64,000 bases of DNA from the NCBI GenBank assembly GCA_951406725.2, contig OX597839.1, positions 31,682,001 through 31,746,000 of the forward strand. The letters run 5' to 3'. The stretch is from Octopus vulgaris (Eukaryota). The position numbers and the translations under genes are program-made. Below the pieces are notes generated by a model. It had not been told where the DNA came from. It was given only the letters and a program-made list of their open reading frames with translations, and did not search any database. This document shows positions 6,935 through 8,513 of the stretch, in pieces; position 1 is the first letter of the stretch; each line of letters begins with the position of its first letter.

Positions 6935-7241
6935 TATACACATACATGCTTTTAGGTAGGTTTTGTCTCGCCCCTAAGAAATACACCATGTATTCTTTAA
7001 ATATTCAGAACATTAGTTTTGGTCACACAGAACATCTCCACACCCCTTGTTCTCATTAATTCCTCACCTACTAGATTTGACCGCGGCCTGACCTGTAAGT
7101 ATTCCAATGGACCCCACCAACCCCCCGATTTCAACGTACATTGATAAACAGTTTATCCATGGGCTCTTAAGGAGCGTCCTCGTTCGAATTGCTTTGCTGC
7201 GCCTCTGTTTTGTTTTGTTCTGACAACGTAATTCCTGGTTT

Positions 7242-7321
7242 TTCCTGAAGAGAAAGCTGCAATATAGTATCCTTATTTAATCAGAATTTGGAAAATTGTG
7301 GCCTTTGAAACATGTGTAGAA
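7242..7321 (+). ncRNA. Type I hammerhead ribozyme in a ~400-bp non-coding element (~6975-7380)
   Basis: Stem I ttc/gaa; core CTGAAGA 7245-7251; stem II aaag-ctgcaat / attgtgg-c-cttt; GAAAC 7307-7311; short stem III ACA-tg-TGT; cleavage triplet GTA 7316-7318. AATAAA follows at 7325-7330 and the element ends at (TA)n. Confidence 0.8.
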
Positions 7322-7379
7322 TGTAATAAAAGGAATTCTGTACAATCTTCGTTCAACTCCATTTCTTCCATTCACTAAT

Positions 7380-7548
7380 TATATATATATATATATATAT
7401 ATATATATATATATATATATGTATATATATATATATATATATATATATATATATATATATATATATATATATATATATATATATATATATATATATATGT
7501 GCATATATATATATATATGTGTGTGTGCATATATATATATATATATAT
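7380..7548. repeat. (TA)n-rich microsatellite between two convergent hammerhead elements
   Basis: Direct observation. Confidence 0.97.
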
Positions 7549-7626
7549 CGGTAAATCATAAATCCCAAAAAGGAGCACACTCTAAGCAGTAGAGTATATA
7601 GATAAAGATAGACATGGCTGGTCTAT

Positions 7627-7686
7627 GAGGTTACCCTGGGTTTCACGTTCATAAAGTGCTTAACTTTACAGCATTTCTTCAGACCC
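7627..7686 (-). ncRNA. Type I hammerhead ribozyme in a non-coding element (~7549-7760)
   Basis: Minus strand reads gggt CTGAAGA a atgc-tgtaaagt-taagc-actttatg-aacgt GAAAC ccagg GTA acctc. The core is intact, stem II is long, stem III is ACC/GGT, and stem I gggt/acct extends with ggccta/tagacc. Confidence 0.85.
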
Positions 7687-8513
7687 TAGGCCTATGGCCT
7701 CTCTAGCAAGTGGCTTCTCTAGATAATGTAAATATAAGTATGTAGGCATAGTTAGAGATTTGCTTCCTTTACAAACATTGAAGTAAATTCTTTTCAAAAC
7801 TGAAACCATAGATTTACTTATATATTGTCTGAAGCAAAGTTCTTGAACTTCTAAATTGTTTGACCCCATTACAGACATACAAACCCTTTATTGAACCCTC
7901 TTACCTCTATCTCCCCTACACACCCGGTAGAATAATATGGTAATGTTGGAATTTATTGGAGTCCATTCAAAAGAGAGTTTACAAATGAGTGTATCCATTA
8001 AGAAAATAAAAAATTATCAATGATAACCTATTTAAAGCAATTAAAATTATGAACAGTATTCAAAACTTTAACAACCTATATTTTTCAGCAATAAAATACG
8101 TTGTATGAACATTTCAAATGTTAATATTGTCCATTGTTAGAAATCAAAGACAAATATTTTACTACTTTGCATTACTGGAAAATGAGTAATACTGACAATA
8201 ACATAAAGCAAATTCTAAAAAAGAAAAAAAAGGTATCTCCCTTCTTTTCTAACAAAACCAAATGTTTGTTGAATGGAATATCAGTAGATTGTAATTTGTC
8301 ACTGATACAAATTAATTATTAATTGGTTAAAAAAAAACCACTTTTAAATCTATTCCACAAAACTTCAAGAATGCCAAATAAGCTTAATCTTCCAGTGAAT
8401 TTTCTATTTTTTAAAATTGTTTTTAGACTAACATACCTTTCCCAAATTTCTGATTTAATATCTGAACTATAGGAAGAAAAGAAAAGATACAATTGGATAT
8501 TTTACTCTATTAA

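What the first reader, a model, noticed from the sequence alone, without database searches (positions are those of the whole stretch)
6975..7760. Convergent pair of two different canonical hammerhead elements around one (TA)n tract
A plus-strand hammerhead (7242-7321, followed by AATAAA) and a minus-strand hammerhead (7627-7686) from different families point toward the same (TA)n tract (7380-7548). Both have intact CUGAAGA/GAAAC/GUA cores and unusually long stem II hairpins. Because (TA)n is self-complementary, it can serve as a target on either strand, which would explain tail-to-tail pairs (inference). Transcripts from either strand would be cut at this locus.
Basis: partly seen in the sequence, partly recalled or inferred. 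Interest (0 to 1): 0.72.

Follow-up and report, generated by a model that had tools for sequence, protein, structure and literature searches.

The report
Two Penelope retroelement ends meeting
The two facing ribozyme motifs are real but are the ends of two unrelated-age copies of a known kind of jumping gene (Penelope-like elements) that both land in TA repeats, so their facing layout is most likely a common by-product, and cutting of RNA at this spot is untested and predicted to be weak.

Summary
Each is the terminal ribozyme of a Penelope-like retroelement of the Hydra type: A (plus strand, young) and B (minus strand, old, close to Hydra-1_Obim). The plus hammerhead is not a free element: it is the tail-less arm of a back-to-back A insertion (6516-7380) with (TA)n on both sides, which most likely landed in the TA tract beside an older B end. 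Facing orientation is strongly non-random (52 facing, 5 away) because element 3' ends abut TA, but pairing is close to chance: 2 of 297 random TA tracts have such ends on both sides (about 1 expected), and 18 of 187 other A ends face one (random sides 34 of 594, P=0.07). Cleavage is unsupported: both motifs are dimer-type, lie on opposite strands, and A copies show no excess of 5' ends at the cut. Side results: A arms pair one tailed with one tail-less end (62 of 62 resolved; 158-nt tail), and A lacks the linker zinc motif proposed to aim at TA. This scan noted both on other DNA before.

The parts
6370..6515 (.). (TA)n tract left of the A insertion; likely the other half of the single target tract (shares a GTGCA interruption followed by 8-9 TA units with the right tract)
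   Evidence: one-tract origin is inference
6516..6609 (-). Family A tailed ('L') arm: last 94 nt of the 158-nt tail, 3' end at 6516 in the left TA tract
6610..7380 (+). Family A tail-less ('S') arm: 3' UTR/pseudo-LTR of a Hydra-type Penelope-like element, starting just after the ORF stop, ending 61 nt past the predicted cut at an internal TATAT
   Evidence: nearest other copy 97.9% over 771 nt
7242..7321 (+). Type I hammerhead of family A; 12-bp-plus helix II, 2-bp palindromic helix III; predicted cut after 7318
7325..7330 (+). AATAAA inside the element, between the two segments of helix I; not at the element end and not conserved as AATAAA in 5 of 9 aligned relatives
7380..7548 (.). (TA)n tract shared by the A S arm and the B end
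7549..7728 (-). Family B: 5'-truncated, tailed 3' end of an older Hydra-type Penelope-like element (78-89% to other copies)
7628..7686 (-). Type I hammerhead of family B; extra A after CUGAAGA, palindromic 3-bp helix III; predicted cut after 7632

Best explanation
The two hammerheads are the terminal ribozymes of two Hydra-type Penelope-like retroelement families, and they likely face each other only because a recent two-armed A insertion landed in the TA tract already lying at the 3' end of an old B copy. Shown: both families carry RT plus C-terminal GIY-YIG coding sequence upstream of these ends; their 3' ends abut (TA)n; A insertions are mostly back-to-back arms with one tailed and one tail-less 3' end, both pointing outward; facing pairs of different families recur at near-chance frequency. 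Inferred: order of events (B first, from divergence); that the element's enzyme nicks both strands of the self-complementary TA target and primes reverse transcription at two fixed sites 158 nt apart; that the RNA template is uncut. Predicted: as lone, opposite-strand, dimer-type motifs they cut host transcripts poorly or not at all, so the pair has no function of its own.
For: Family identity: RT/EN ORFs joined to the same ends (A; B); Hydra motifs per PMC8557442 section 11; B visibly close to Hydra-1_Obim in that paper's supplement (by eye). Copy counts: 179 exact tail-less ends and 171 exact tailed ends running into TA, 0 in controls. Architecture: of 90 S-selected loci 62 have an inverted partner ending at L, 0 at S, 4 elsewhere, 18 none, 6 unresolved; of 30 L-selected 15 partner S, 0 partner L, 13 none, 2 unresolved. 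Ages: A 99-100% over the last 200 nt (best hits), B 73-89%. Chance pairing; a same-layout pair of two other families lies in a blindly picked stretch (L322:1100-1600); four more A ends face B-like ends (L076, L088, L108, L146). Weak cleavage; PMC4209133 and PMC11167929.
Against: A ends face another ribozyme-family end 1.7 times as often as random TA sides (9.6% vs 5.7%, P=0.066), and with intact cores only 6 of 187 vs 7 of 586, so a modest preference for occupied tracts is not excluded. Both cores at this locus are intact although only 15 of 38 B arms keep an intact core. Folding energies ignore core tertiary contacts and protein help. The empty site was not seen, so the one-tract origin and order are inferred.
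Confidence: 0.9

Rival explanations
1. Hot-spot version: Hydra elements prefer TA tracts already bordered by another element's end (longer or more open tracts, or recognition of the resident tail), so facing pairs are mechanistically favoured though still functionless.
For: 18 of 187 A ends vs 34 of 594 random sides (odds ratio 1.75); intact cores 6 of 187 vs 7 of 586.
Against: P=0.066; 13 different library entries are among the partners, no partner choice; tract length and regional density were not matched.
Confidence: 0.3
2. The pair is a co-opted two-way RNA cutter or terminator that severs transcripts from either strand.
For: Both cores intact; hammerhead helices covary across A-related families (score 0.359 vs 0.221 shuffled, 0 of 500); B core intact where most B copies are damaged.
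Against: Covariation reflects selection on the mobile element, not on this locus; A copy is recent; opposite strands cannot supply each other's dimer partner in one RNA; active folds disfavoured; no cut-site pile-up; published lone PLE hammerheads inactive.
Confidence: 0.04
3. The two motifs belong to non-coding retrozymes or one composite element rather than to two coding retroelements.
For: Neither piece in the window codes for protein; a tandem 484-nt hammerhead repeat exists in this genome (L072).
Against: Both ends are continuous with RT/GIY-YIG sequence in other copies; no other locus among 187 A ends repeats this junction; ages differ widely.
Confidence: 0.02

Closest known systems
Hydra clade of C-terminal EN+ Penelope-like elements, incl. 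Hydra-1_Obim (Craig et al. 2021, PMC8557442; passages, section 11 and supplement search hits seen)
   Same: RT plus C-terminal GIY-YIG without CCHH, RW/DKT motifs (A), CxxC..E..N..CxH, hammerhead near the 3' end, (TA)n insertion, inverted 5'-truncated arm, tail at one end; B is visibly close to Hydra-1_Obim.
   Different: A lacks the CxCX5C linker (0 of 7 copies) and has an Asn/Ser-rich insert; A is about 3.7 kb; tails are 158 nt (A) and about 55-60 nt (B) against the 30-40 nt described; helix II is much longer.
Minimal/dimeric type I hammerheads of metazoan PLEs (Cervera and de la Pena 2014, PMC4209133; parts 1-2 of 4 read)
   Same: Short palindromic helix III, enlarged helix II, extra base between positions 9 and 10.1 (B), mostly solitary truncated copies; that paper already reports opposite-strand pairs 100-700 bp apart in Schistosoma.
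   Different: That paper does not say whether its pairs face each other or are of different families; no genome-wide orientation count seen there.
Poseidon from Anolis, PAc (Frangieh et al. 2024, PMC11167929; main text read, parts 1-2 of 4)
   Same: Tail equals the stretch between two RT start sites; both target strands cut and extended; uncut RNA is the template; hammerhead needs protein.
   Different: PAc start sites are adjacent and not homologous to the target; A's are 158 nt apart and the S site has 5 nt (TATAT) matching the target; a strict one-tailed/one-tail-less pairing of arms was not quantified there.
Penelope elements of Adineta vaga (PMC3846280; passages)
   Same: Inverted pLTRs with a tail on one of them; Asn-rich inserts between RT and EN.
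   Different: Penelope/Poseidon-type elements with ordinary short TSDs; microsatellite not mentioned in the text.

Membership tests
Type I hammerhead ribozyme | Core CUGANGA / GAAA / NUH joined by three helices | tested here: met
   B with one extra A, a described variant
Type I hammerhead ribozyme | Compensatory change in helices | tested here: met
   A-related set of 9: 7 of 17 pairs change on both sides, 88.9% cells paired, slid controls 37-46% (structure drawn from the window copy). B copies alone are inconclusive
Type I hammerhead ribozyme | Self-cleavage | not testable with these tools
   indirect signs negative:
Type I hammerhead ribozyme | Match to an Rfam hammerhead model | tested here: not met
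   gathering threshold; long helix II is the likely cause (inference)
EN+ Penelope-like element | Single ORF with RT and GIY-YIG | tested here: met
   A: (all fetched copies frameshifted; weak RVT_1 hit E=0.0026; dN/dS 0.14-0.42 RT, 0.17-0.38 EN core); B: decayed RT and EN
EN+ Penelope-like element | pLTR partial tandems, inverted truncated copy, one-sided tail | tested here: met
Hydra clade | RWK-like and DKT motifs | tested here: met
   A: RIRW and DKT. B: region not recovered
Hydra clade | EN without CCHH, with CxxC..E..N..CxH | tested here: met
   A; B
Hydra clade | CxCX5C linker motif | tested here: inconclusive
   present in B; absent in 7 of 7 A copies, so A is Hydra-like with this feature not met
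Hydra clade | (TA)n insertion preference | tested here: met
Hydra clade | RT phylogeny groups with Hydra references | not tested
Non-LTR retrozyme | Non-coding tandem units each with a hammerhead | tested here: not met
   both are truncated ends of coding elements; definition from 10.64898/2026.07.22.740005

The most novel reading that the evidence does not exclude
Family A records how a Penelope enzyme integrates: it nicks both strands of a self-complementary (TA)n target and primes each at a different fixed site on the RNA, 158 nt apart, so arms pair strictly one tailed with one tail-less, and it keeps TA targeting without the linker zinc motif proposed to provide it, probably by pairing the target with TA-like bases at the start site. 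Facing hammerhead pairs are then an obligatory by-product, thousands per genome.
Probability: 0.45. Interest if true: 0.55.

Novelty: new member of a known kind. Interest (0 to 1): 0.18.

Why it matters
The pair itself matters little: it is transposon debris of a described kind. The useful part is the family data: a young element with two well-separated start sites and no linker zinc motif is a clean substrate to test two open points of Penelope biology (origin of the inverted arm and tail; what aims the enzyme at TA repeats). About 12 intact hammerhead cores per 580 kb (roughly 58,000 genome-wide by extrapolation) go unseen by Rfam here.

Tried and rejected
Rfam scan: no hit. Pfam on ORF pieces: only a weak RVT_1 hit, nothing for the endonuclease. 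Expression: no RNA holder listed; only assembled contigs of runs guessed to be RNA. Contigs of one such run cover B and unique flank at depth 10-14, which cannot show strand, ends or level. A contig of run X15 spans B's 5' junction (7677-8554), so B is shared with that sample; no listed contig of four runs bridges A's arm junction at 6609/6610, which proves nothing about absence. Cut-site footprint: 6 arm starts in -5..+2 vs 4.2 expected among 176 arms, P=0.25. Intron loss in A's pLTR: no recurring GT..AG deletion among 55 alignments spanning 7080-7170. AATAAA as poly(A) signal: copies end 61 or 219 nt after the cut in TA, and relatives differ there. Host gene: no convincing coding ORF in the window; intron or intergenic status is open. 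Naiad clade considered and rejected (endonuclease is C-terminal). The first homology count was inflated by one library entry carrying an unrelated repeat; it was cut to its hammerhead part. Literature searches showed no paper on facing pairs of different PLE families or on a strict tailed/tail-less count; subscription papers and bioRxiv supplements were not visible.

Full report
Observation. Both motifs are present at the stated places with the stated cut sites. The descriptor used gave no hit in 1.9 Mb of shuffled flanks or in 580 kb read backwards. Rfam finds nothing at gathering score. B has an extra A after CUGAAGA, a variant described for PLE hammerheads in PMC4209133; A closes helix II with G-U where 7 of 9 aligned sequences have G-C. 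Across nine A-related hammerheads the three helices are 88.9% paired with 7 of 17 pairs changed on both sides, above all 500 shuffles for the covariation score and above the slid controls; the structure was drawn from the window copy, which favours it somewhat.

What the two pieces are. The window lies in a 2.8-Gb, microsatellite-rich animal genome. Both pieces are dispersed repeats: A is young (best hits 99-100% over 200 nt; nearest copy 97.9% over 771 nt), B is old (73-89%). A full A copy (L065) reads truncated pLTR, tail, ORF with RT and C-terminal GIY-YIG, pLTR, tail, (TA)n. The protein has RIRW, DKT and CxxC..E..N..CxH and no CCHH, the marks of the Hydra clade in PMC8557442 section 11. 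All long copies fetched are frameshifted, but copies differ with dN/dS 0.14-0.42 in RT and 0.17-0.38 in the endonuclease core, so the family coded a working protein. B ends are continuous with a decayed RT and the same endonuclease type, with the CxCX5C linker, and by eye are close to Hydra-1_Obim in that paper's supplement. No tree was built.

Anatomy of the locus. A has two fixed 3' ends: S, 61 nt after the predicted cut at an internal TATAT, and L, 158 nt further on. Exact S-into-TA and L-into-TA junctions number 179 and 171. I examined 90 of the 179 S loci and 30 of the 171 L loci (overlapping sets). S loci: 62 have an adjacent inverted arm ending at L, 0 at S, 4 elsewhere (two interrupted L arms, one partial tail, one duplicate), 18 none, 6 unresolved. 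L loci: 15 partner S, 0 partner L, 13 none, 2 unresolved. B shows the same layout with a tail of about 55-60 nt. The window holds exactly this: (TA)n 6370-6515, L arm 6609-6516 on minus, S arm 6610-7380 on plus, (TA)n 7380-7548, then a 5'-truncated tailed B end 7728-7549 on minus. Both TA tracts carry the same GTGCA interruption, which fits one split tract but could be slippage. Inverted arms with a one-sided tail are described (PMC8557442 passages; PMC3846280 passages).

Is the pair special? In 58 evenly spaced 10-kb stretches there are 12 intact cores. By homology to a library of 30 hammerhead families found here, 34 of 594 sides of (TA)8+ tracts abut a facing end and 4 an end pointing away; 2 of 297 tracts have facing ends on both sides, 0.97 expected, about 4,700 genome-wide by rough extrapolation. 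One of the two (L322) repeats the window's layout with two other families. For A ends, 18 of 187 besides this one face such an end (P=0.066 against random sides), with partners from 13 library entries; four face B-like ends. With intact cores only: 6 of 187 against 7 of 586.

Would RNA be cut? Helix III is 2 bp (A) or 3 bp (B) and self-complementary; predicted self-dimers are -6.0 and -11.6 kcal/mol, while active monomer folds lie 6.8 and 6.0 kcal/mol above the minimum, with helix I pair probabilities at or below 0.01. The B consensus fold pairs the helix I strand with the helix III strand. These energies ignore tertiary contacts. In print, a lone metazoan PLE hammerhead gave no cleavage and dimers little (PMC4209133, parts 1-2 of 4), and the Anolis one cut only with protein, was dispensable for insertion and left no RNA-seq ends at the site (PMC11167929, main text). 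A arms show no excess of 5' ends at the cut (6 vs 4.2) but pile up 141-180 nt upstream of it (31 of 177), which fits an uncut template starting in the pLTR (inference). The two motifs are on opposite strands and cannot partner in one RNA. Cleavage remains untested.

Mechanism. Most likely (0.9): an old B insertion left its tailed end at a TA tract; later an A enzyme nicked the same tract on both strands and copied its RNA from two start sites, giving outward-facing arms, one of which faces B. The two-strand, two-site step is inferred from the 62 to 0 pairing and from the in vitro behaviour of PAc. Only 26 of 84 L arms are shorter than the tail, so most overlap the S arm and simple twin priming on one linear pLTR copy does not explain them; two templates or a tandem RNA are needed.

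Novelty. The pair is ordinary. Two side results go beyond the papers I could search: the strict tailed/tail-less pairing with a 158-nt tail, and TA targeting by a family whose linker lacks CxCX5C in 7 of 7 copies, against the proposed role of that motif; mobilisation in trans by a family that has the motif is not excluded. Earlier notes of this scan report the Hydra assignment, two-site priming, long helix II and a missing zinc motif on other pieces of this genome; I had reached these from my own calls, except the name Hydra-1_Obim, the splicing test and the octopus label, which came from those notes. Score 0.18.

Noticed in passing
window 8510-8811: High-copy element with terminal inverted repeats starting CCCCTT and TTAA at both ends; looks like a piggyBac-type MITE (family label recalled).
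   Followed up: no
window 6550-6603: A roughly 50-nt core inside A's tail is shared by many diverged families (summed contig depth over a million vs 41 for unique flank in run X15; not a copy number); candidate protein-binding site of the RNA.
   Followed up: partly
window about 7138-7177: 5' ends of A arms pile up 141-180 nt upstream of the predicted cut (31 of 177); possible transcription start or RT stop; no intron-type deletion found.
   Followed up: partly
L036, L041, L052, L059, L194, L196, L213, L219: Tail-less ends of family B often run into (TATC)n arrays that continue the element's own last bases, suggesting the element seeds these microsatellites.
   Followed up: no
L072:3700-5800: Tandem plus inverted 484-nt hammerhead repeat, retrozyme-like.
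   Followed up: no
L079:950-1950: Two A tail-less ends face each other across a 450-nt TA tract, a same-family convergent pair.
   Followed up: partly
L146:1900-2450: The two arms of an A insertion join inside the hammerhead at the start of helix II, suggesting a template switch at the hairpin.
   Followed up: no
L238:3919-4710; L230:5305-6000: Further Hydra-type endonuclease ORFs with the CxC linker, one with a long low-complexity insert inside the GIY-YIG motif, as in B.
   Followed up: no
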